64,000 nt of DNA from a virus (IMGVR_UViG_3300020045_008999:512001-576000), one strand, 5' to 3'. Shown: positions 19,557-55,023, counted from the first letter of the stretch. Program-made: numbers and translations. The notes: generated by a model from the letters alone, not told the origin.

Positions 19557-21656
19557 ATGAACCCAAAGAAAATCACAACATTAACTGATCGTAAAATCGA
19601 CGCAGAACAACTGAAAATCAATAATTCTATAGGTGATGATGACGACGATAACTCACCAAAGTACAAATCTAGCTATACACCAGATCCTAAATCTAAAACA
19701 CCGGTGATTGATCAATTCTGTAGAGACTTGTCCAAAATGGCCGAAGAAAAGAAGTTAGATACTGTAGTGGGCCGAAGCGAAGAAGTACATCGCGTATCCG
19801 TTATTTTATCACGACGTAAAAAAAATAACCCACTATTGATTGGTGAACCAGGGGTTGGTAAAACAAGTATCGCTGACCAGTTAGCTATGCAAATCGCCGA
19901 AAAGAAAGTGTCGCGCACATTATATGATAAAAGAATCGTATCCGTTGATTTGGGACAAATGGTTGCCGGTACTAAATACCGCGGTCAATTTGAAGAACGA
20001 ATCAAGGCATTGGTATTGGAACTTGAAAAAAATCCGCATATTATTCTTTTTATTGACGAAATCCACACAATCATAGGTGCGGGAGGTTCTGCCGGCTCTA
20101 TGGATGCTGCTAATATGTTAAAGCCAGCATTATCGCGTGGTGATATTCAGGTTATTGGTGCGACAACATTAGAGGAATATCGCAAACATATTGAAAAAGA
20201 CGGGGCTTTAGATCGTCGATTTCAAAAAGTTACGATCAATCCACCAAGTGAGGAAGATTCAATTATTATTTTGAATAATATAAAAGGCATGTATGAGGCA
20301 CACCATAATGTTATTTATTCACCAGAAGCAATTGAAGCTTGTGTGCGTTTAACATCACGTTACATTACCGATCGAAACTTACCGGATAAAGCCATTGATG
20401 CTATGGACGAGGTCGGTTCTAATATTCGCATTGCAAACATCGTAGTCCCACAAGAAATCTTAGACATTGAAATAAAAATTGCAGAGACTATTGAAAATAA
20501 AAATTTGGTAGTGAAGCAACAAAAGTATGAAGATGCCGCTAAACTTAGGGATGTTGAGAAAAAATTAGAAGTCATCTTAGTAGATGCTACTAATAAGTGG
20601 GAGGAAGACCAAATCAATAACAAAAAGATAATCACCGAGGATAATGTTGCCGGTATTGTTTCTAGAATGAGCGGAATTCCGTTGCAAAAAATTAACCAAT
20701 CCGAAACTAAAAAATTATCTACAATGTTTGATGAATTATCAAGCAAGGTAATCGGTCAAGATTTTGCGGTTGATAAAGTCGTAAAGGCAATTCAACGTGG
20801 TAGAGTTGGTATGAAAGATCCAAACAAACCATTATTTTCTGGATTATTGATCGGTAATTCCGGAGTTGGTAAAAGTGAATTAGCTAAACAATTAGCCAGA
20901 CAGATGTTTGATAATGACAGCTCATTAATTCGCATTGATATGAGTGAATATAGTGAGAAAGTATCGGTGAATAAAATAATCGGATCACCTAGTGGGTATA
21001 TTGGTTATGACGATAGTAATATATTGGACAAAATCAAAAGAAATCCCTATAGTGTAATACTTTTCGATGAAATTGAAAAGGCACATCCTGAAGTGTTTAA
21101 TCTATTCCTACAGATGTTAGATGATGGTCACTTGACTAATTCACAAGGGGTTACGGTATCATTCAAAAATACCATAATTTTAATGACATCAAATGTTGGT
21201 ACACGAAAAGTAAAGGAATTTGGTAGTGGGTTAGGGTACGGAACATCAACCAAAGTTAATAATTCATCTGATTCAATCAGATCCATATTGGATAAAGAAC
21301 TTAAAGTAGTATTTGCCCCGGAATTCTTAAATAGAATTGATGAAATAATTTATTTCAAAGATTTGGACCGCGAAGATATTAGTAAAATTGTTATTTTAGA
21401 GACTAATAAGTCTTTGAAAAGAGCAAAAACATTAGGATTGGATGTATCAATAGATCAGAGTCTAATCGATCACATTGCTACGGTTGGATATGATAAGGAT
21501 TTTGGCGCAAGGCCCTTGAAAAGAGCTGTACAGAAATTTATCGATGATGCAATTACCGAATATATTATTAAGAACGAACCAATTAAGTGTACACTGGTGA
21601 TGAAATTGAGCGAATCACTAGAAACCGAGATCGAGGATGTTACCGAGAATATTTAA
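19557..21656 (+). CDS. clpC: ClpC-type AAA+ unfoldase lacking the N-terminal Clp-repeat domain
   Basis: GEPGVGKT/FIDEIH and GNSGVGKS/FDEIEKAH modules, UVR coil YEDAAKLRD, GLGYG loop, FGARPLKR. Confidence 0.9.
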   Translation: MNPKKITTLTDRKIDAEQLKINNSIGDDDDDNSPKYKSSYTPDPKSKTPVIDQFCRDLSKMAEEKKLDTVVGRSEEVHRVSVILSRRKKNNPLLIGEPGVGKTSIADQLAMQIAEKKVSRTLYDKRIVSVDLGQMVAGTKYRGQFEERIKALVLELEKNPHIILFIDEIHTIIGAGGSAGSMDAANMLKPALSRGDIQVIGATTLEEYRKHIEKDGALDRRFQKVTINPPSEEDSIIILNNIKGMYEAHHNVIYSPEAIEACVRLTSRYITDRNLPDKAIDAMDEVGSNIRIANIVVPQEILDIEIKIAETIENKNLVVKQQKYEDAAKLRDVEKKLEVILVDATNKWEEDQINNKKIITEDNVAGIVSRMSGIPLQKINQSETKKLSTMFDELSSKVIGQDFAVDKVVKAIQRGRVGMKDPNKPLFSGLLIGNSGVGKSELAKQLARQMFDNDSSLIRIDMSEYSEKVSVNKIIGSPSGYIGYDDSNILDKIKRNPYSVILFDEIEKAHPEVFNLFLQMLDDGHLTNSQGVTVSFKNTIILMTSNVGTRKVKEFGSGLGYGTSTKVNNSSDSIRSILDKELKVVFAPEFLNRIDEIIYFKDLDREDISKIVILETNKSLKRAKTLGLDVSIDQSLIDHIATVGYDKDFGARPLKRAVQKFIDDAITEYIIKNEPIKCTLVMKLSESLETEIEDVTENI

Positions 21657-47076: not shown

Positions 47077-47547
47077 ATGGAAGAAATCATTAATATCATA
47101 TTAAATACCCCAAATGATACTGAGTTAGGTACCGCTATTCGAAATTTATATTACGAATCACCGGAACTTTTTGATCAAAATGATAAATATCTAAGATTGT
47201 TTGCAGAGTTTGACAACTTCAAAAAACGTTCCTATAAAGAGCGTGGGGATATTGAGAACCGGGCTAAGATGGATGCAATTGATCCGTTGCTGGAATTATA
47301 TGATGATTTATATTATTCGCTTAAAAACAGCCCAGTGGACAATGACGGCATACAAATAGTGTATGATAAATTGGGGAGAAAATTATTGACGATCGGTATT
47401 GTTGAAGTGTCCACTGAAATTTATGATTCCGAAGTACATGAAGTGATTAGTGTAATTGGAACCGGGAAAGAAATTATTGATGTTGTATCAAAGGGATATA
47501 GCATTAATGGGGTTATATATCGCTATCCGAAAGTAGTTCTAGGGTAA
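47077..47547 (+). CDS. grpE: GrpE nucleotide exchange factor
   Basis: DKYLRLFAEFDNFKKR, HEVI, VVSKGY...RYPKVV. Confidence 0.9.
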   Translation: MEEIINIILNTPNDTELGTAIRNLYYESPELFDQNDKYLRLFAEFDNFKKRSYKERGDIENRAKMDAIDPLLELYDDLYYSLKNSPVDNDGIQIVYDKLGRKLLTIGIVEVSTEIYDSEVHEVISVIGTGKEIIDVVSKGYSINGVIYRYPKVVLG

Positions 47548-47554
47548 GTATTTT

Positions 47555-47601
47555 AATACGCAAAAAAAATTTATTATTAATTTCTTTTTGCGTATTTTTT
47601 T
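47555..47601 (+). terminator. Intrinsic terminator between grpE and cas3
   Basis: AATACGCAAAAA...TTTTTGCGTATTTTTTT. Confidence 0.7.
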
Positions 47602-47650
47602 ATTAAATTAAGATCGTAATTTAGCCAACTTAAAAATTAAAGAAACATAA

Positions 47651-50026
47651 ATGAACGAACAAATAATAGATTTAAAGGAAAATAATAAAAAAATATTAGG
47701 CAAAAGAACAAACAACACGGAAGTTCCATTAATAGACCACATGAACCAGGTAAAGGATAAGGCAGAAATGATAAAGGGTAAATTTTACTATGATAGATAC
47801 AACGGGCCCAAACGTCATTATAGTGATGCTCTGTTAACCGCTGCACAATTTCATGATATAGGCAAAGCTAATCCGGTATTCCAACTAAAAGTAATGATGA
47901 CCAAACAAGACTTTGAAGATACCGAACTCATGACAGATGTAAAATATAAAAATGGTATTATACTAACTAATAAATTCAGACATAATGAGATCGGTGCGGC
48001 ATTTATGTATATTTGGACCAACGTAGAATATGAAGTAGTTAAATTGATATATTGGCACCATGGGATTTCGAAAAATAACCAGATCAATAAGACTGGGTTT
48101 AGTGAGATATTGAAAGGGGTTGATGTTGAACAAATGAAGAATATTGTCCGTGAATTAAACCCTGATATATTACTAACGGAACCCAAAGACAGTATTAACT
48201 GCCCTACCTTTTACACTACTAACATGAACATAGCTAATATCGCACTACATGAAGATGATAGTGATTTCATGACTACATTAAGTTACTTAATAAGTGCGGA
48301 CAGAATGGTATCTGGTTCATCGATTAACATTTCGAATGTAATTAATAAACAACCAGTGACTACATATACTAATCCATACAACAATGACCGATTTGCTGAT
48401 CAAGAAAGAATTGCAATGGATGCTACTCATGTAGAAGGCGGCGAAGATAAGCGAGTTACACAAATCAATGCGCCTGGTGGATTTGGCAAAACCATGGTTG
48501 GGTTATTGTGGAGTTTGAAGTCTGATAAAAGGCTAATTTGGGTTTGTCCAAGAAATTTTATTACTGAAAATATTTACGAATCGATAAAAAAAGAACTCAA
48601 GCTTCTTAATGTCAAATACAAGGTATCGTGTATTATTGCCGGTGAAGTCACTCGATCTAATTATGAAGAACTTGGTATTGTCAACGAACCAAACATCTAT
48701 GAATCGGATATAGTTGTAACTAATATAGATTCATATTTACGCCCAAATTACGAACTAAACAATGTACATGCTTCATTGAATATTCTAAATGCTGATGTGA
48801 TTTTTGACGAGTATCACGAATTGATATCTAAGAGTGGTGGAATATTTGCACTATTTTCTAAAATACTGAAAGCTAGAAATTCCTATTCTAAACATGGCAA
48901 AACTCTTTTATTGTCCGCAACACCCATCGATTTTTCAAGTCGTTGGCATGTAAAATATGGTGGTGGTTCCTATATATTACCCTCAAACGACGGACATTAT
49001 CCACCAATACATGATAAGAAATACAAAGTAACGGTGACCATTGATCAGAAGATTGTCAAAATTAATGACTTGACACTATATGTAAAAAATACAATAAAGA
49101 GTGCTCAAGAATTGGCCATTTACTATAAACATTCTAATTTATTACATCACAAGTTCCAAGAAGTCGACAAAGAAAGAATATTTGGTGAAATGATACGTTC
49201 GTATGGTGCCGGCGGCAAATATAAGAAACAACATAATTTACCTGGGTTTATAGGAACCCATGTAATACAATCATCATTAGATATATCGTTCAAACATATG
49301 GTTGAAGACGTTATATCACCATCAGCCAGTATGCAACGTTTTTCTAGATGTGATCGAGCAGGGGATTACGATAGTGTTCAATTCGGACAATCTGAGGTGA
49401 CATTCAATTTAAACACGGATAAAAGTAGTGAGACAATTTCTGAAATATTATATGAATCAGATTTAACAATTCTTTGGCACGGATATTTACGAATACATCA
49501 TCAGCCTCAAATGACAATTGCCGAACTTTATACGCTATACCGTGATTTTAATAGAGTTTATAGTTCTTCAATTACTAATTGGGTAAGTGACTGCTATAAT
49601 GATTCTAATAATAATCTATTAGCGATATACCCAATAAAGTATTTCAAGCAGAAAGCCAACAAAAATAAAAATAGCGTTCCAAATAATATAATGCGGTCAG
49701 ATAGTAACCATGTAGCATACACATGTCTTCTAGATGATGGATCTGGAAATTATATGCTCCCATTATCACAAGGTTTGTATAAAAATAGTTACCCACAAAC
49801 TTTTAAAGAGCCAGGTGATTGGAGGGAATGTATGGTTAATTTTATAGAAGAACAAAATAAATTACCAAACTCAATATTTGATTTTAGTAAATATAAAAAT
49901 AAAGGAAATAAGGTTCTAGTATGGACTGATGATAATATGCGAAAAAGCTTTAGAAATTACGACACACCATATTTATCGGTAAATGATGTATATTCGCCAA
50001 TATATGGTGTAATACGTAATAAATAA
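47651..50026 (+). CDS. cas3: CRISPR-associated HD nuclease-helicase Cas3
   Basis: LIDH, FHDIGKANPVFQ, RHNEIG, WHHG, ADRMVS; APGGFGKT, IFDEYH, LSATP, LHHKF, THVIQSSLDI, QRFSRCDR. Confidence 0.95.
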   Translation: MNEQIIDLKENNKKILGKRTNNTEVPLIDHMNQVKDKAEMIKGKFYYDRYNGPKRHYSDALLTAAQFHDIGKANPVFQLKVMMTKQDFEDTELMTDVKYKNGIILTNKFRHNEIGAAFMYIWTNVEYEVVKLIYWHHGISKNNQINKTGFSEILKGVDVEQMKNIVRELNPDILLTEPKDSINCPTFYTTNMNIANIALHEDDSDFMTTLSYLISADRMVSGSSINISNVINKQPVTTYTNPYNNDRFADQERIAMDATHVEGGEDKRVTQINAPGGFGKTMVGLLWSLKSDKRLIWVCPRNFITENIYESIKKELKLLNVKYKVSCIIAGEVTRSNYEELGIVNEPNIYESDIVVTNIDSYLRPNYELNNVHASLNILNADVIFDEYHELISKSGGIFALFSKILKARNSYSKHGKTLLLSATPIDFSSRWHVKYGGGSYILPSNDGHYPPIHDKKYKVTVTIDQKIVKINDLTLYVKNTIKSAQELAIYYKHSNLLHHKFQEVDKERIFGEMIRSYGAGGKYKKQHNLPGFIGTHVIQSSLDISFKHMVEDVISPSASMQRFSRCDRAGDYDSVQFGQSEVTFNLNTDKSSETISEILYESDLTILWHGYLRIHHQPQMTIAELYTLYRDFNRVYSSSITNWVSDCYNDSNNNLLAIYPIKYFKQKANKNKNSVPNNIMRSDSNHVAYTCLLDDGSGNYMLPLSQGLYKNSYPQTFKEPGDWRECMVNFIEEQNKLPNSIFDFSKYKNKGNKVLVWTDDNMRKSFRNYDTPYLSVNDVYSPIYGVIRNK

Positions 50027-50059
50027 TTTTTTATTAGCCAGTATGTCAAATATAACTAT

Positions 50060-50067
50060 TATATTTG
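50060..50067 (+). promoter_or_regulatory. Bacteroidota -7 element TATATTTG ahead of the Cascade genes
   Basis: In the 72-nt cas3-cas7 gap. Confidence 0.55.
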
Positions 50068-50098
50068 CTTCATTAATAAATAATCTTAGTAAAACATT

Positions 50099-51190
50099 AT
50101 GAAAAACAACGTACAGAACATTCTTTTTAGAGTGAAATTGAAGGGAAATGGTATTGTGAATTTTGATTCGGATAATCAAAAATGGGATTTAGTTAAACAT
50201 GGTATAAAACATTTGGTTCCCACCGATGATAATAATCAAATGGTGAGTAATACGAAATATGCCAAGAAACGTTTTTTCAAAGATGCTGATGGCAATCCAT
50301 CTTACAAAATCGCGATATCGTCAACGTGTTTAGGTAAGGCTATATATGCAGACCACCTTGAAATTACTACGCCGATGATCGGAGTGAATGACATTTTATT
50401 TATGGGATGTGTGGCTAGTCCCGCGTCATTATTGCGTGGCTATGTACAAACTCGTGGTAAGAATTCTGTATCATATAATCGAAAGGGCACAGTGACACTA
50501 AGTGATGCAGTCCAGTCAAACGGTGCTATATCTTCAGTAGAAACTATGACCAAAGCCGGATCCAGAAGTGCAACTTCATTATATAACCAAGAAAATGTAA
50601 GTGATATAGAGTATGAAGCAACTGGTATAATGAATTTACAAGAAATGCAATTCTATTCGGTGGATACATTACATTCCCGAGCTATGTTTTCTGATGATTT
50701 ATTTCCAATGTTTTCCAAATTAATTAAGTCGCGTATGCCGGAATTTGATTCAGAAATAGGGTATTATACTTTGAAGACTTGCGAAGCTAAGATACCAGAA
50801 AAGGGATTTGTCATTAACGATGAATGTATGTTACATTTGGTTAAGTTTTATTTCTCTAATTTGATCAGAGCTAAAATAACAAGAGCTCATGGACATGCTG
50901 CTGTACACGAAGTTGAATATAAACTGGTAACTGATACGGTTTATGGTGGCATGAATGATACAAGTGATTGGATAAAAATCAAATCACAATCATGCATTGA
51001 TTCAATGTCTTTTGGTACAAAAGAATGGTACCAAGAATATAGTGATTCTGAAAGTGATTCAATTAGAAGTCTAATTGATGTAGTTGAAGTAACTACTAAA
51101 GAAAATAAAAAGAAAAAAAACGAAGAAGCATCTGCTAGAAAGGCAGCGGCCGCTGAGACACGTCTTAAAAATAAAGATGATGGGAAATAA
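50099..51190 (+). CDS. cas7fv: Cas7fv-like backbone subunit (type I-F2/I-Fv)
   Basis: FRVKLKGNGIVNFD, ISSTC, ASPASLLRGYV, GSRSATSLY...EY...QEMQFYSVD...RAM, EKGFVIND, ITRAHGHAAV align colinearly with Shewanella Cas7fv as recalled. Confidence 0.85.
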   Translation: MKNNVQNILFRVKLKGNGIVNFDSDNQKWDLVKHGIKHLVPTDDNNQMVSNTKYAKKRFFKDADGNPSYKIAISSTCLGKAIYADHLEITTPMIGVNDILFMGCVASPASLLRGYVQTRGKNSVSYNRKGTVTLSDAVQSNGAISSVETMTKAGSRSATSLYNQENVSDIEYEATGIMNLQEMQFYSVDTLHSRAMFSDDLFPMFSKLIKSRMPEFDSEIGYYTLKTCEAKIPEKGFVINDECMLHLVKFYFSNLIRAKITRAHGHAAVHEVEYKLVTDTVYGGMNDTSDWIKIKSQSCIDSMSFGTKEWYQEYSDSESDSIRSLIDVVEVTTKENKKKKNEEASARKAAAAETRLKNKDDGK

Positions 51191-52190
51191 TTTAGGATAC
51201 ATAAAATTAGTCTTTGATTCTGCAAAATTATTTAGGGTTGCAAAAGACGAGAAAATTGGATCACTTTCACCCAAAGCTGGTTTATTAAAATCACAAGAAT
51301 CAATTGATGGAAAATCTCTTACCAAGCGTAAGAGATTTGGCTTTGTGAATCCAATTACTTATTATCAAATCAGTAATGTATTATGTGCACTTACTGGTAA
51401 TCGTCCAGTTAATTCAGTCAGGTTTACTAGATTCGAGCACAATAACGACTATATCGATTGGGCAAAACAGTGTTACTTAAAGTACACAAATTTACTCACA
51501 TATGATGAAGATGGGCTTATTTTGCCAACTCGAAGTGTTGTCACAACTTCTAAGGCTATGGATAATTCTAATGTAACCCAAGTGTTATTAACCTGGAGTG
51601 ATATTAAATATTTCGTAGGCGAATATATCAAAGATGCATTAAGCATGTCCGCTTTCGACCAGTTGCTATCCCACTATAATGTAAACATGTGCGATGCCAC
51701 TTTTGAAGATTTTTTAGAAGTGGTAGCTAAAAGTGGTGATACTAAAACATTATATACTTGGCTGTATGGTTTGAATAAAAATGGAACCCCTTCAAAAACA
51801 CTGCTGAATGATATTACTTATTATTACATTTCTAAGGGACATATTGATAAGTCGCTTCCGGGATTTAATATAAAAGGACATGTATTTGGTAATTACACAA
51901 TTCCTATGACTCAGAATATGCCTAGTTCTGGGAATATGCGAGCTACCGATGATTGGCGAATTGGTGCCAGAATAAAAAGTGGCATCAATCACCATGAATT
52001 ATTTTGTGGTGAAATTTTGGTACCAATTAGAAAAGTGGGGGATCTTCAAAAATTTCTAGTCGGGTCCGGAGTTTGTACTATATTGGATGGGGGTGTAGTG
52101 ACCATACATGGCGAGGCTAATCCGGAAATTGACCACCTATCAGAATTTGAATTAGTAGGAAATATATCAGACGAACGTCTAATCAATTAA
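51177..52190 (+). CDS. cas5fv: Cas5fv-like subunit
   Basis: 337 aa, large for a Cas5 and like Cas5fv; ITYYQISNVLCALTG helix; CGEILVP and GSGVCTILDGG Gly-loop; lies between cas7 and cas6. Confidence 0.7.
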   Translation: MMGNNLGYIKLVFDSAKLFRVAKDEKIGSLSPKAGLLKSQESIDGKSLTKRKRFGFVNPITYYQISNVLCALTGNRPVNSVRFTRFEHNNDYIDWAKQCYLKYTNLLTYDEDGLILPTRSVVTTSKAMDNSNVTQVLLTWSDIKYFVGEYIKDALSMSAFDQLLSHYNVNMCDATFEDFLEVVAKSGDTKTLYTWLYGLNKNGTPSKTLLNDITYYYISKGHIDKSLPGFNIKGHVFGNYTIPMTQNMPSSGNMRATDDWRIGARIKSGINHHELFCGEILVPIRKVGDLQKFLVGSGVCTILDGGVVTIHGEANPEIDHLSEFELVGNISDERLIN

Positions 52191-52202
52191 AAAATATCAT
52201 AT

Positions 52203-52967
52203 ATGCGTATTAAAATATCATTTACTGAAAACAATAAACCAGTCCCAGTAGACAATCAGTATCATTTAAATTCCTATATACATAAATGTTTAGGAAATAA
52301 CAATAAATACCACAATGCCAAAAGTGATTACTCAATTTCACATCTATACGGTGGTACTCTAAATAAGTCCAATAACACATTAAATTTTGAAAAGGGTGGC
52401 TATATTATAATATCATCGATGGATAAAGAGTTTATGGGTGCTTTATTTGCGGGAATATATGCTAATCAACTATTTGGATTTGGCATGCAGTTCAAATCAG
52501 TTGATAATGTAGCCGCTGAATATTTCTATGCCGGATGGAATCACTTTGCAACACTATCACCATTTATTATTAAAGAATATCAGGATAAAAAAAACTATAC
52601 ATTCTTAACGCTAGATGATCCTAATTTTGAATACAAAGTGAAGCAATATTTAATTCGCAAAATTCGCAAAATCAATCCTAGATTGGATTTGTCTGATTTT
52701 GATATAAATATCAAAACTCACGAAAAGCACAAAATTAAAAAAATATTGATAAAGAATGTTATCAATCATGCGAATCAATGTCAGATTTCAATTTATACAA
52801 ATCCTAAAGTTGCTAAACTATTGTACCACATAGGAATAGGACAATCAACCGGTTCTGGTCTTGGTACAATATATCCTACATCTAAACATAGCTTTTATCG
52901 TGAGGTGAAAATACATTCAGGTAATGTTACTAAAGTAGATAGGATCGAAAAAATGCAAATGTATTAA
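52203..52967 (+). CDS. cas6: CRISPR endoribonuclease Cas6 (I-A/I-B/III style)
   Basis: MRIKISF...PVDNQY-x-L-x-SYI, YSISHL, TLSPFII, GIGQSTGSGLG loop. Confidence 0.92.
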   Translation: MRIKISFTENNKPVPVDNQYHLNSYIHKCLGNNNKYHNAKSDYSISHLYGGTLNKSNNTLNFEKGGYIIISSMDKEFMGALFAGIYANQLFGFGMQFKSVDNVAAEYFYAGWNHFATLSPFIIKEYQDKKNYTFLTLDDPNFEYKVKQYLIRKIRKINPRLDLSDFDINIKTHEKHKIKKILIKNVINHANQCQISIYTNPKVAKLLYHIGIGQSTGSGLGTIYPTSKHSFYREVKIHSGNVTKVDRIEKMQMY

Positions 52968-53059
52968 TAATAGTGTGTATAAAATGTGTCGAAATCAGAA
53001 TATTAACACCCAAAAATCCAGTACAAACTACTACACTTCAATAAGTTATACTGTGGTAT
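52968..53059 (+). promoter_or_regulatory. Putative CRISPR leader
   Basis: Short AT-rich non-coding gap adjoining the eight identical repeats. Confidence 0.55.
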
Positions 53060-53649
53060 AGTAGTACTTATAGTAATCCGTAAGGGAATCACAACCATTC
53101 AGAAGGAGCAAATCCTAAATTATTAAGTAGTACTTATAGTAATCCGTAAGGGAATCACAACAACGGTATAACTCTTATAATCACCGCGGTCAGTAGTACT
53201 TATAGTAATCCGTAAGGGAATCACAACACGGAAAAGACGAAAGTTTAATATATAGGAGTAGTACTTATAGTAATCCGTAAGGGAATCACAACCGGATCTA
53301 GGTTTATTAAAATTTTAGTTAAGTAGTACTTATAGTAATCCGTAAGGGAATCACAACACTTATTAATTCCTGCGACTGGCGAGTAACAGTAGTACTTATA
53401 GTAATCCGTAAGGGAATCACAACTAGTAATCGAAAAAACGGTTAGTGATTACAGTAGTACTTATAGTAATCCGTAAGGGAATCACAACATGATGAGAAGA
53501 AATAAAAATGTGGATCAAAGTAGTACTTATAGTAATCCGTAAGGGAATCACAACACTCTATAGATTATTTAATAACTCTAAGAAAGTAGTACTTATAGTA
53601 ATCCGTAAGGGAAATATAATAGAATTAATTGGGATCTAATTTTATGAAT

Positions 53650-53744
53650 GGGAATTATATCGGTCCGTGTGGAAAACACATCATAATATGTTTAAGTTCT
53701 TTGAAATCTTTGGTAGTTATAGTGATCTGAAAGGGAATCACAAC
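53650..53744 (+). repeat. 95-nt block inside the array, copy 1
   Basis: 93/95 identical to 54500-54594. Confidence 0.95.
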
Positions 53745-54499
53745 AAAGTGTAAAAATTGGTTTCCATATACTATGGTAGTACTTATAGCAATCCGTAAGG
53801 GAATCACGACCACGCTATAGATTATGCTGGTAGAAATACAGTTAATAATTATATCAATCCGTAAGGGAATCACAACAGGCGTTCTCATGGAGGCGGCTTT
53901 GAATAAAGTAGTACTTATGACAATCCGTAAGGGAATCACAACAAGTGACACTTCAATGCCAAAAAAAGTAATAGTAGTACTTATGACAATCCGAAAGGGA
54001 ATCACAACATAAACGGATTACACACCACACGGCTAGAAAGTAGTACTTATGACAATCCGAAAGGGAATCACAACTAGTTATGGACGTAGAGAGAGATCCC
54101 TTTAAGTAGTACTTATGACAATCTGAGAGGGAATCACAACACATAAATAATTTTACCACAATCCGAAAGGGAATCACAACGTGATAAACGCAATTTGGTC
54201 GTTTGGGTCCAGTAGTACTTATGACAATCCGAAAGGGAATCACAATGTCGGATGTCATGTTAATACATCTCAGATGAGTAGTACTTATGACAACCCGAAA
54301 GGGAATCACAACTATAGTGGCCTCTAGCTCCACTTTTGTTACAGTAGTACTTATAGCAATCCGTAAGGGAATCACAACGGAAATCTTCTTGAGGCACAAC
54401 AGGAAAATAGTAGTACTTATAGCAATCCGTAAGGGAATCACAACAGGACCGATAGCGTGGTGTATAATAGATTTGAGTAGTACTTATGTTAATCCATAA

Positions 54500-54594
54500 G
54501 GGAATTATATCGGTCCGTGTGAAAAACACATCATAATATGTTTAAGTTCTTTGAAATCTTTGGTAGTTAAAGTGATCTGAAAGGGAATCACAAC
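54500..54594 (+). repeat. 95-nt block inside the array, copy 2
   Basis: 93/95 identical to 53650-53744. Confidence 0.95.
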
Positions 54595-55023
54595 AAGCGT
54601 AAGCAACACCAATATTTTAAAGAGTTGCCACTTATAGCAATCCGTAAGGGAATCACAACAGTGCTGCGGGTAATTATCCAAATAAAATTAGTAGTACTTA
54701 TAGTAATCCGAAAGGGAATCAGAACAAACTGTATTGGGGTAGTCATTTTATTTTTGGTAGTACTTATAGCATTCCGTAAGGGAATCACAACATCATTGAA
54801 TTTGAGCTAGGTGTTCAAGCAGTTGGTACTTATAGCAATCCGAAAGGGAATCACAACAATCAGTGCATCAAAAATTGAATAATCATTAGTAGTACTTATA
54901 GCAATCCGAAAAGGAATCACAACAAATGAACAGAATTAAATTAGAATTAGAAAAGTAGTATTTATAGTAATCCGTAAGGGAATCATCGCAAATAACCTGG
55001 TGAAAATTTAAAGAAAAATAATT

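What the first reader, a model, noticed from the sequence alone, without database searches (positions are those of the whole stretch)
47651..54989. Phage-encoded minimal hybrid type I CRISPR-Cas: Cas3 + Cas7fv + Cas5fv + Cas6, with no Cas8/Cas11/Cas1/Cas2
Seen: four genes and an array, bounded by grpE plus a terminator on one side and an unrelated small ORF on the other, in a T4-like jumbo-phage context. Known: the characterised type I Cascade lacking large and small subunits is I-F2 (I-Fv, Shewanella putrefaciens CN-32), which uses a roughly 336-aa Cas5fv, Cas7fv, Cas6f, a Cas2-Cas3 fusion, Cas1, 28-nt repeats and 32-nt spacers. Here Cas7 aligns colinearly with Cas7fv as I recall it and Cas5 is 337 aa, but Cas3 has no Cas2 fusion, Cas6 is not Cas6f-like, and the repeat/spacer geometry is 36/30. 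Inference: a chimeric four-protein interference system of about 5.3 kb that fits no subtype I know. The Cas3 HD and helicase motifs look intact, so it is probably active, most plausibly against competing phages/MGEs or host DNA.
Basis: partly seen in the sequence, partly recalled or inferred. Interest (0 to 1): 0.93.

Follow-up and report, generated by a model that had tools for sequence, protein, structure and literature searches.

The report
Megaphage Cas8-less minimal CRISPR-Cas3 system
A 597-kb bacteriophage carries an intact four-gene, DNA-shredding CRISPR system with no large subunit and no spacer-capture genes. It is a distant, rebuilt relative of the smallest known type I system (I-F2) and belongs to a family seen here only on huge phages.

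Summary
At 47651-52967 (+) lie cas3 (HD plus helicase, no Cas2), a Cas7fv-like gene, a 337-aa gene and a generic Cas6. About 25 spacers follow (36-nt repeats, 29-31-nt spacers), and a 15-repeat array lies 29 kb downstream, outside the window.

The record is a 596,785-bp virus contig with a T4-type capsid gene and a terminase. Cas1, Cas2, Cas4 and Cas8f profiles found nothing in it.

The 337-aa protein has no sequence-family match. Its model is closest, of 48,161 solved chains, to Cas5fv (Z 6.8), followed by other Cas5 proteins. It is also predicted to dock on Cas7.

The same cassette and repeat 3' half recur in more than 25 huge-phage contigs, always without adaptation genes. One distant viral locus pairs the same core with a Cas6e-type Cas6 and a 32-nt repeat.

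It fails most defining features of I-F2: Cas6f, the Cas2-3 fusion, Cas1, and 27/28-nt repeats with 32-nt spacers. I therefore class it as a new variant of a known kind.

No protospacer was found, so targets and PAM are unknown. The 36/30 geometry and repeat ends match Bacteroidota type II-C arrays, which hints at spacer capture by host enzymes; this is untested.

This scan has already reported the same family on other phage DNA. One relevant paper (Al-Shayeb 2022, Cell) could not be read.

The parts
47556..47605 (+). Terminator-like hairpin plus T-run between grpE and cas3; upstream boundary of the module
   Evidence: Sequence read: 11-bp inverted repeat ATACGCAAAAA/TTTTTGCGTAT followed by a T-run. 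Not called by the consensus scan, probably because of its long loop.
47651..50026 (+). cas3: HD nuclease plus SF2 helicase plus C-terminal domain, with no Cas2 domain
   Evidence: Pfam Cas3_HD, DEAD and Cas3-like_C_2. PADLOC Cas3fv 8e-57. PDB 9G44_A 3.4e-33. HD motifs H30, H68-D69, H111, H136-H137, Walker A GFGKT, DEYH and motif VI are present and conserved in relatives.
50099..51190 (+). cas7, Cas7fv-like backbone subunit
   Evidence: NCBIfam NF040577 Cas7fv 2.3e-14 (53.5 bits, below the 200-bit cut-off). PADLOC Cas7fv 1.7e-12. Profile A2 against 5O6U_C and 9G44_F, 4e-29. Precomputed Pfam PF28157 Cas7fv-like.
51177..52190 (+). Cas5-like subunit (Cas5fv-like RAMP core with a helical insertion at about residues 140-220); predicted 5'-handle binder and PAM reader
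   Evidence: No Pfam, NCBIfam, PADLOC or PDB sequence hit. AF2 model pLDDT 84. Best structural match of 48,161 chains is Cas5fv 5O6U_F (Z 6.8, rmsd 4.1, 124 aligned), followed by Cas5 of I-B, I-A, I-E and I-C. Foldseek top hits are 9G44_B and 5O6U_F. Predicted docking on Cas7: 0.88 against 0.02 for the best control.
52203..52967 (+). cas6, generic (I-B-type) crRNA endoribonuclease
   Evidence: TIGR01877 8.6e-23 (above cut-off), Pfam Cas_Cas6_C, PADLOC Cas6b 7e-41. 50-60% identical in phage relatives, at most 32% in 401 sampled Bacteroidota genomes, apart from the misbinned phage contig of G006 (51%).
52968..53059 (+). Leader of array 1 (inferred)
   Evidence: A/T-rich stretch between the cas6 stop and the first repeat. 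Polarity is inferred from degenerate last repeats at the 3' end of all four arrays.
53060..53620 (+). CRISPR array 1: 9 repeats (8 identical, the last degenerate) and 8 spacers of 29-30 nt
53650..53746 (+). Junction element, copy 1: degenerate repeat tail, 47-nt spacer-less stretch, and the diverged first repeat of array 2
   Evidence: Family D5, 98% identical to 54500-54596.
53709..54511 (+). CRISPR array 2: 13 diverged repeats (one truncated at 54145) and 11 spacers
54500..54596 (+). Junction element, copy 2
   Evidence: D5.
54559..54989 (+). CRISPR array 3: 7 repeats and 6 spacers, with the last repeat degenerate

Best explanation
This is a working, interference-only type I CRISPR-Cas module carried by a 597-kb tailed phage. 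It is a phage-borne relative of the Cas8-less type I-F2 system in which the crRNA-processing part has been exchanged.

Proposed mechanism:
1. The arrays are transcribed on the + strand from the cas6-proximal leader.
2. Cas6 cuts each repeat at the 3' base of a conserved 3-bp mini-hairpin. This leaves an 8-nt 5' handle (ATCACAAC) and a 28-nt 3' repeat tag.
3. One Cas5-like subunit caps the handle, about five Cas7 subunits cover the 30-nt spacer, and Cas6 stays on the 3' tag.
4. With no Cas8 or Cas11, the helical insertion of the Cas5-like protein reads the PAM and wedges the duplex open, as in I-F2.
5. The Cas7/Cas5 surface recruits the stand-alone Cas3, whose HD nuclease and helicase shred the target DNA.
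6. The phage encodes no Cas1, Cas2 or Cas4, so its ~39 spacers must have been added in trans by a host integrase or gained by recombination between phages.

The likely use is against rival phages or other mobile elements in the same host, probably a member of the Bacteroidota.

What is shown: gene identities, intact motifs, family-wide conservation, repeat conservation, and absence of adaptation genes. What is inferred: cleavage site, stoichiometry, PAM reading by Cas5, the targets and the route of spacer gain.
For: Components:
- Cas3, Cas7fv-like and Cas6 are identified by profile searches.
- The Cas3 catalytic motifs are intact and conserved in 15 relatives.

Cas5 assignment:
- AF2 model with pLDDT 84.
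- Rank 1 of 48,161 PDB representatives is Cas5fv 5O6U_F (Z 6.8, rmsd 4.1, 124 aligned). Cas5 subunits of I-B, I-A, I-E, I-C and I-F fill many of the next ranks.
- The Foldseek top two are the two I-F2 Cas5 chains.
- Gene order and length (337 aa against 336 aa) match Cas5fv.

Predicted Cas7-Cas5 binding:
- Score 0.88; the best of 3 controls scored 0.02.
- In calibration, the pass mark was reached by 58 of 80 solved complexes and 2 of 110 mismatched pairs.
- The runs agree in at least 50% of contacts, and the partner's pLDDT is at least 61.
- A like complex (5O6U, 9G44) is solved, so the pass may reflect likeness to it.
- The interface uses the RAMP core, not the helical insertion.

Selection for function:
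- The Cas3-Cas7-Cas5-Cas6-array order, with all ORFs intact, appears in 22 of the first 24 related loci and in further metagenome contigs up to 494 kb.
- The Cas5-like family has 167 clusters at 50% identity.

Repeat:
- The 3' half is conserved across relatives while the 5' half varies (alignment A3).
- The 3-bp stem is paired in 100% of cells, with a CG-to-UA double change in 3 of 12 repeats.
- Degenerate last repeats lie at the 3' end of all four arrays.

No adaptation or large-subunit genes:
- None found in this genome.
- No Cas1 in five related records, four of them rated 100% complete.

Arrays change in nature: strains with the identical Cas7 protein carry largely different spacer sets.

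Phage context: gp23-type capsid gene, terminase, CheckV completeness 98%.
Against: - No protospacer was found for any spacer tried, so neither the targets nor the PAM is known.
- The Cas5 assignment rests on structure at a middling Z (6.8, only 1.3 above the next hit) and on synteny. No sequence profile links it to Cas5fv.
- The mini-hairpin is only 3 bp. Sliding the partner by one column still gives 94% pairing, and the repeat as a whole folds no better than shuffles.
- This copy has Ser where 13 of 15 aligned relatives have Gly (the other two Ala, Arg) in helicase motif VI.
- Arrays 2 and 3 have diverged repeats and one truncated unit, so part of the locus may be decaying.
Confidence: 0.8

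Rival explanations
1. It is simply an ordinary member of subtype I-F2 (I-Fv) that happens to sit on a phage.
For: The Cas8/Cas11-less four-gene layout is shared. Cas7 and Cas3 both score best against the I-F2 models. The Cas5-like protein is nearest to Cas5fv.
Against: - Cas7 scores 53.5 bits against a 200-bit equivalog cut-off.
- No Cas5fv model hits the 337-aa protein or any of 90 relatives.
- Cas6 is a generic, I-B-type Cas6 and not Cas6f.
- Cas3 has no Cas2 domain, and there is no Cas1.
- Repeats and spacers are 36/30, against 27/28-nt repeats and 32-nt spacers (PMC12956352).
Confidence: 0.07
2. The module is a decaying relic or a repressor-type (non-cutting) system that no longer degrades DNA.
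For: There are no adaptation genes. Arrays 2 and 3 have diverged or truncated repeats. No targets were found. This copy has a Gly-to-Ser change in motif VI. Huge phages are known to carry interference-deficient systems (PMC7162821).
Against: All four ORFs are intact here and in more than 20 relatives at 25-60% identity, which indicates long-term purifying selection. The HD and Walker A residues are invariant. Array 1 has eight identical repeats. Spacer sets differ between near-identical strains.
Confidence: 0.08
3. The 337-aa protein is a divergent large subunit (Cas8-like), or an unrelated accessory protein, rather than Cas5. The system would then be a reduced I-B-like Cascade.
For: No sequence family is assigned. 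One of 90 relatives gave weak PADLOC Cas8b hits (E 5e-4 to 4e-3). Cas6 and the repeat style are I-B-like.
Against: The best structural matches are Cas5 subunits across the whole length, with Cas5fv first. The fold is a RAMP/RRM core with an inserted helical domain. No other Cas5 candidate exists in the cassette, and Cas7 is Cas7fv-like and not Cas7b. Predicted docking onto Cas7 goes through the RAMP core.
Confidence: 0.05

Closest known systems
Type I-F2 (formerly I-Fv) CRISPR-Cas of Shewanella putrefaciens CN-32 (PDB 5O6U, 5O7H, 9G44; PMC4937334, PMC12956352)
   Same: No Cas8 and no Cas11. The effector is built from Cas7, an enlarged Cas5 with a helical domain, and a Cas6. Cas3 is of the same lineage (9G44_A 3e-33). 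Cas7 is homologous (4e-29). Cas5 lengths are 337 and 336 aa.
   Different: Here Cas3 is not fused to Cas2, and there is no Cas1. Cas6 is a generic, I-B-type Cas6 instead of Cas6f. The repeat is 36 nt with 30-nt spacers, against 27/28 and 32. Cas7 falls far below the family cut-off, and Cas5 is related only by fold. The system is carried by huge phages rather than plasmids or genomic islands.
Vibrio phage ICP1 type I-F1 CRISPR-Cas (PMC10161043)
   Same: A phage-encoded type I-F-lineage system that uses Cas3 to destroy DNA during infection.
   Different: ICP1 keeps Cas8f (Csy1), Cas1 and a Cas2/3 fusion, and acquires its own spacers. The system here has none of these.
Huge-phage type I-C variant lacking Cas1/Cas2 (Al-Shayeb 2020, PMC7162821)
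   Same: Huge-phage type I systems stripped of adaptation genes. [quoted passage not shown]
   Different: That variant lacks Cas6 (Cas5d-like processing) and has a different helicase in place of Cas3. It is not of the I-F2 lineage.
Adaptation-less arrays fed in trans: F. columnare VI-B using II-C Cas1 (PMC8092290); plasmid IV-A3 using host I-E (cited in PMC11656645)
   Same: Arrays without their own Cas1/2 whose repeat length and ends resemble those of a co-resident system. Here the match is 36-nt repeats, 30-nt spacers and the terminal GAATCACAAC, as in Flavobacteriaceae, Schleiferiaceae and Rikenella II-C arrays.
   Different: In-trans acquisition is not shown here. The leaders show no obvious similarity, and no host genome with the exact repeat core was found.

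Membership tests
Type I CRISPR-Cas (general) | Cas3 with an HD nuclease and an SF2 helicase next to Cas5/Cas7/Cas6 genes and a CRISPR array | tested here: met
Type I-F2 (I-Fv) | [quoted passage not shown] | tested here: met
   The four genes abut (intergenic gaps of -14 to 72 bp). No Csy1 in the genome. The same four-gene set appears in all relatives. Divergent Cas8 genes elsewhere cannot be fully excluded.
Type I-F2 (I-Fv) | Cas7f2/Cas7fv signature protein | tested here: not met
   NF040577 scores 53.5 bits against a 200-bit cut-off. Homology itself is clear (profile against 5O6U_C, 4e-29). It is a relative, not an equivalog.
Type I-F2 (I-Fv) | Cas5f2/Cas5fv with a PAM-reading alpha-helical domain | tested here: inconclusive
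   The fold is nearest to 5O6U_F (Z 6.8) and 9G44_B (Z 5.9), with a helical insertion. There is no sequence-level match.
Type I-F2 (I-Fv) | Cas6f endoribonuclease | tested here: not met
   Best matches are PADLOC Cas6b (138 bits) and TIGR01877 generic Cas6. No Cas6f model is listed.
Type I-F2 (I-Fv) | Cas2-Cas3 fusion and Cas1 (adaptation module) | tested here: not met
   The HD domain starts at residue ~22, aligned to residue 18 of the Cas2-truncated 9G44_A. No Cas2 or Cas1 in the 597-kb record.
Type I-F2 (I-Fv) | 27/28-nt repeats with 32-nt spacers | tested here: not met
   36-nt repeats with 29-31-nt spacers. Reference values from PMC12956352.
Type I-B | Cas8b with Cas7b/Cas5b, plus Cas6b | tested here: not met
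   Only Cas6 is I-B-like. Cas7 scores as Cas7fv/Cas7f and Cas3 as Cas3fv. There is no Cas8b gene in the cassette.

The most novel reading that the evidence does not exclude
The phage arrays are built by the host's type II-C Cas1-Cas2(-Cas9) integrase. The 36-nt repeat, 30-nt spacer, GTTG...GAATCACAAC ends and leader-side orientation copy Bacteroidota Cas9 arrays. A phage type I interference machine would then be loaded with spacers by a host type II system. The fast-evolving helical domain of the Cas5-like subunit would have to read whatever PAM the host Cas9 selects. In addition, the Cas3/Cas7/Cas5 core is a portable cassette that phages re-plug onto different Cas6-and-repeat sets (Cas6b-type here, Cas6e-type in L024) to match the host they infect.
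Probability: 0.22. Interest if true: 0.8.

Novelty: new variant of a known kind. Interest (0 to 1): 0.6.

Why it matters
- At 5.3 kb and four proteins, with an unfused Cas3, this is among the most compact complete type I interference systems. That makes it a natural candidate scaffold for long-range genome deletion tools.
- It shows that the Cas8-less solution known from I-F2 is not a rare bacterial oddity. It is the standard design of a family that recurs on huge-phage contigs.
- The effector core can be recombined with different Cas6 and repeat modules.
- It offers a tractable case for two open questions: how Cascade reads PAMs and recruits Cas3 without a large subunit, and how adaptation-less arrays on mobile elements gain spacers.

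Tried and rejected
Protospacer searches, all negative:
- All 39 spacers against the phage's own genome with arrays masked: longest match 17 nt.
- The in-window arrays by blastn against 50,697 GenBank phages: nothing above chance.
- Six spacers, with every sixth base free, against IMG/VR, and one against the metagenome collection.
- 114 spacers from relatives against this genome, and this phage's spacers against all held loci.
- The in-window arrays against five related complete phage records: only repeat-to-repeat matches.
- The in-window arrays against 401 Bacteroidota genomes: only one borderline 32/35 match. It involves the last spacer of array 3, which reads like the N-terminus MNRIKLELEK of small ORFs. 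I did not rely on it.

Host and repeat searches:
- The exact repeat core was absent from 185,579 species genomes.
- The looser periodic search found type II-C arrays and one relative of this cassette, on a contig placed in a Bacteroidetes MAG. That contig shares further genes with this megaphage and has 30% GC, so it is a misbinned phage fragment and not a cellular instance.
- That MAG's own Cas1 sits beside an unrelated array with a 73-nt period.
- Leaders of the phage arrays and of II-C arrays show no obvious shared motif.
- The Bacteroidota promoter motif TTTG-N18-21-TAnnTTTG is not enriched in the window: 6 found against 3.6 expected.

Other:
- DNA-level similarity of the cas region to GenBank phages: none.
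- Sequence links between the 337-aa family and Cas5fv: none, by Pfam, NCBIfam, PADLOC or PDB profiles.
- Literature: no held paper mentions I-F2 or I-Fv together with huge, jumbo or megaphages. Al-Shayeb et al. 2022 (Cell) is not held, so prior description there cannot be excluded.

Full report
WHAT IS THERE

The window is bases 512001-576000 of a single 596,785-bp IMG/VR virus record. Its GC content is 31.9% and CheckV rates it 98% complete. Elsewhere the record encodes a T4 gp23-type major capsid protein (PF07068, 85 bits) and a large terminase. It is therefore a tailed megaphage. Most large ORFs of the window match no PHROG family. The exceptions are a ClpB-like ATPase, a helicase and an ssDNA-binding protein.

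On the + strand, after grpE (47077-47547; Pfam GrpE, 5e-17) and an A/T-rich hairpin with a T-run, lie four tightly packed ORFs: 47651-50026 (791 aa), 50099-51190 (363 aa), 51177-52190 (337 aa) and 52203-52967 (254 aa). CRISPR repeats then run from 53060 to 54989.

THE ARRAYS

The repeat is 36 nt and the spacers are 29-31 nt. The in-window array is composite.
- Array 1 (53060-53620) has eight identical repeats and a degenerate ninth.
- Arrays 2 (53709-54511, 13 repeats, one truncated) and 3 (54559-54989, 7 repeats) have diverged repeats.
- Arrays 2 and 3 each begin with the same 97-nt junction element, whose two copies are 98% identical (family D5).
- A fourth array of 15 repeats lies 29 kb downstream, at genome 595592-596549, outside the window.

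In total there are 39 spacers, with 33% GC.

In all four arrays the last repeat is degenerate in its final ~8 nt. This places the leader on the cas6 side and implies + strand transcription.

THE PROTEINS

Cas3 carries Cas3_HD, DEAD and Cas3-like_C_2 domains.
- It scores far better against the PADLOC Cas3fv model (191 bits) than against any other Cas3 family (the next is Cas3b at 96 bits).
- Its only solved relative by sequence is the I-F2 Cas3 of 9G44 (3.4e-33).
- That chain is a Cas2-truncated construct (PMC12956352), and its HD domain aligns from residue 18 to residue 22 here. The phage protein therefore has no Cas2 domain.
- The HD histidines and aspartate, Walker A (GFGKT), DEYH, SAT and motif VI are present.
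- The HD, Walker A and motif VI positions are conserved in 15 relatives. This copy has Ser where 13 of the 15 relatives have Gly in motif VI.

Cas7 matches NCBIfam Cas7fv (2.3e-14, 53.5 bits, well under the 200-bit cut-off) and PADLOC Cas7fv/Cas7f. A profile of 21 relatives hits the Cas7fv chains of 5O6U and 9G44 at 4e-29 over nearly the full length.

Cas6 passes TIGR01877 and is closest to a PADLOC Cas6b model (7e-41).

THE 337-AA PROTEIN

No Pfam, NCBIfam, PADLOC or PDB sequence search matches it. This holds even for a 90-member family profile, and for its more distant homologues.

An exhaustive HMMER search found 167 clusters of relatives. With these, AlphaFold gave a confident model (pLDDT 84, pTM 0.78): a RAMP/RRM core formed by the N- and C-terminal parts, with a five-helix insertion at about residues 140-220.

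Structure comparisons:
- Foldseek's two best PDB hits are the I-F2 Cas5 chains 9G44_B and 5O6U_F (E 1e-3 and 9e-3).
- Aligning the model to all 48,161 PDB cluster representatives puts Cas5fv 5O6U_F first (Z 6.8, rmsd 4.1 Å, 124 residues aligned).
- Cas5 subunits of I-B CAST, I-A, I-E, I-C and I-F take many of the following ranks, mixed with generic RRM domains.

The Z-score is middling. The assignment therefore rests on the combination of best fold match, the helical insertion, the gene position between cas7 and cas6, the length (337 aa against 336 aa) and the lack of any other Cas5 candidate.

A co-folding test of Cas7 with this protein scored 0.88 against 0.02 for the best of three controls.
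- In calibration, the pass mark was reached by 58 of 80 solved complexes and 2 of 110 mismatched pairs.
- The runs agree in at least 50% of contacts, and the partner's pLDDT is at least 61.
- The contacts lie on the RAMP core.
- I-F2 Cascade structures are solved, so this pass may show likeness rather than independent proof of binding.

A FAMILY, NOT A ONE-OFF

- Cas7 relatives (21 clusters, all from metagenomes) sit in the same Cas3-Cas7-X-Cas6-array order on contigs of up to 83 kb. Those contigs also carry sigma factors, SmpB, IF3, NAMPT and PRPP synthetase, which are typical huge-phage cargo.
- IMG/VR holds 17 loci, including complete 310-389-kb phage genomes.
- tblastn finds all four proteins in order in 22 of the first 24 loci.
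- Three distant Cas5-like proteins chosen again sit in the same cassette, one of them on a 494-kb contig.
- Identity to the window's proteins is about 50-60% for Cas6, 35% for Cas7, 31% for Cas3 and 25% for the Cas5-like protein. The presumed PAM reader thus evolves fastest.
- None of five related records has Cas1; four of them are rated 100% complete.
- The only 'bacterial' instance found lies on a 44-kb contig in a Bacteroidetes MAG. That contig shares other genes with this megaphage and has 30% GC, so it is a misbinned phage fragment.
- Cellular Bacteroidota Cas6 proteins are at most 32% identical.

MODULARITY

Two distant viral loci carry the same core.
- L023 has the order Cas6b-like, Cas7fv-like, X, Cas3.
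- L024 has Cas3 (Cas3fv model from position 106, so again without Cas2), a Cas7 closer to canonical Cas7fv (134 bits), an X homologue, and a Cas6e-type Cas6 with 32-nt repeats ending GTTGAAAG.
- Both X proteins are homologous to the 337-aa family (hhalign probability 99.6-99.7%).

So the Cas3/Cas7/Cas5 core recurs with different Cas6-and-repeat modules, while bacterial I-F2 uses Cas6f.

THE REPEAT

Across relatives the 5' half of the repeat varies, while the 3' half (AATCCGTAAGGGAATCACAAC here) is conserved and the last nine bases are invariant.

A 3-bp stem (positions 18-20 with 26-28) is paired in all 12 distinct repeats, with a CG-to-UA double change in three of them. Cutting at its 3' base would give the canonical 8-nt handle, ATCACAAC.

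This evidence is modest. A one-column slide of the pairing partner still pairs 94% of cells, and the whole repeat folds no better than shuffled sequence.

SPACER GAIN AND TARGETS

Strains with the identical Cas7 protein carry largely different spacer sets. L001 and L003 share only one spacer with L002, L005 has two extra spacers, and L015 has a different first spacer. The arrays therefore turn over in nature without phage-encoded Cas1/2.

No protospacer was found in any search. Targets and PAM are unknown.

The exact repeat core is absent from 185,579 species genomes. However, arrays with the same 36/30 geometry, the same GAATCACAAC end and the same leader-side orientation occur in Flavobacteriaceae, Schleiferiaceae and Rikenella MAGs. 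In those whose flanks I scanned (L025, L029, L044, L058) they belong to type II-C Cas9-Cas1-Cas2 loci.

In Flavobacterium columnare, a Cas1-less VI-B array with 36-nt repeats acquires spacers through the II-C machinery (PMC8092290). In-trans loading by a Bacteroidota II-C integrase is therefore a reasonable but untested idea. The leaders show no obvious similarity.

COMPARISON WITH KNOWN SYSTEMS

The module works like I-F2 (Cas8-less Cascade plus Cas3), and its Cas3 and Cas7 belong to that lineage. It fails most membership features:
- the Cas7fv cut-off;
- Cas6f;
- the Cas2-3 fusion;
- Cas1;
- 27/28-nt repeats with 32-nt spacers (PMC12956352).

It differs from phage ICP1's I-F1, which keeps Cas8f, Cas1 and Cas2/3 (PMC10161043). 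It also differs from the huge-phage I-C variant of Al-Shayeb 2020, which has no Cas6 and a different helicase (PMC7162821).

I found no held paper that links I-F2 with huge phages. Al-Shayeb 2022 (Cell) could not be read. A Pfam family named Cas7fv-like (PF28157) already covers the Cas7.

Earlier notes of this scan describe the same family on at least five other phage genomes, with matching conclusions. This is therefore a repeat sighting on new DNA.

VERDICT

This is a new variant of a known kind, and interest is moderate to high. It is an intact member of an unnamed huge-phage family of minimal type I systems, but it is not unique, and its targets, PAM and route of spacer gain remain open.

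Noticed in passing
outside the window: G000:C1:595592-596549 (would be window 83592-84549): A fourth CRISPR array of 15 repeats and 14 spacers with the same repeat (starting GTTGGTAC...), about 240 bp from the contig end and 29 kb from the cas genes.
   Followed up: partly
window 53650-53746 and 54500-54596: A 97-nt element duplicated at 98% identity forms the start of sub-arrays 2 and 3. It holds a degenerate repeat tail, a 47-nt stretch with a small GTGTG..CACAC hairpin, and a diverged first repeat. It may be a secondary leader or a recombination scar.
   Followed up: partly
L024:7672-14066 (IMGVR_UViG_3300005976_000005): A distant viral variant with the same Cas3 (no Cas2), Cas7fv-like and X core. 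It carries a 172-aa Cas6e-type Cas6, 32-nt repeats ending GTTGAAAG, and 32-38-nt spacers.
   Followed up: partly
L023:5931-5958 and L023:12672-12701: In another distant variant (gene order Cas6, Cas7, X, array, Cas3), one spacer matches the same contig 6.7 kb away at 26 of 28 aligned bases of the 30-nt spacer. This is a possible self-target or regulatory target.
   Followed up: no
window 54924-54953: The last spacer of array 3 reads as ATG AAC AGA ATT AAA TTA GAA TTA GAA A (MNRIKLELEK). It gives 32/35 matches to a small ORF start in two sampled Bacteroidota genomes, G250 and G050. It is borderline and low in complexity.
   Followed up: partly
window 19557-21656 and 47077-47547: The phage encodes its own chaperone set: a ClpB-like ATPase (phrog_4871, 2e-222) and GrpE.
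   Followed up: no
L001/L003 versus L002; L004/L006 versus L005; L010 versus L015: Phage strains with identical Cas7 proteins differ in spacer content, including at the leader-proximal position. This shows ongoing gain or loss without phage cas1/2.
   Followed up: partly
G006:C207 (L035, L091-L093): A 44-kb contig binned into a Bacteroidetes MAG is a fragment of a related huge phage. Its gene order is cas7, X, cas6, array, cas3.
   Followed up: yes
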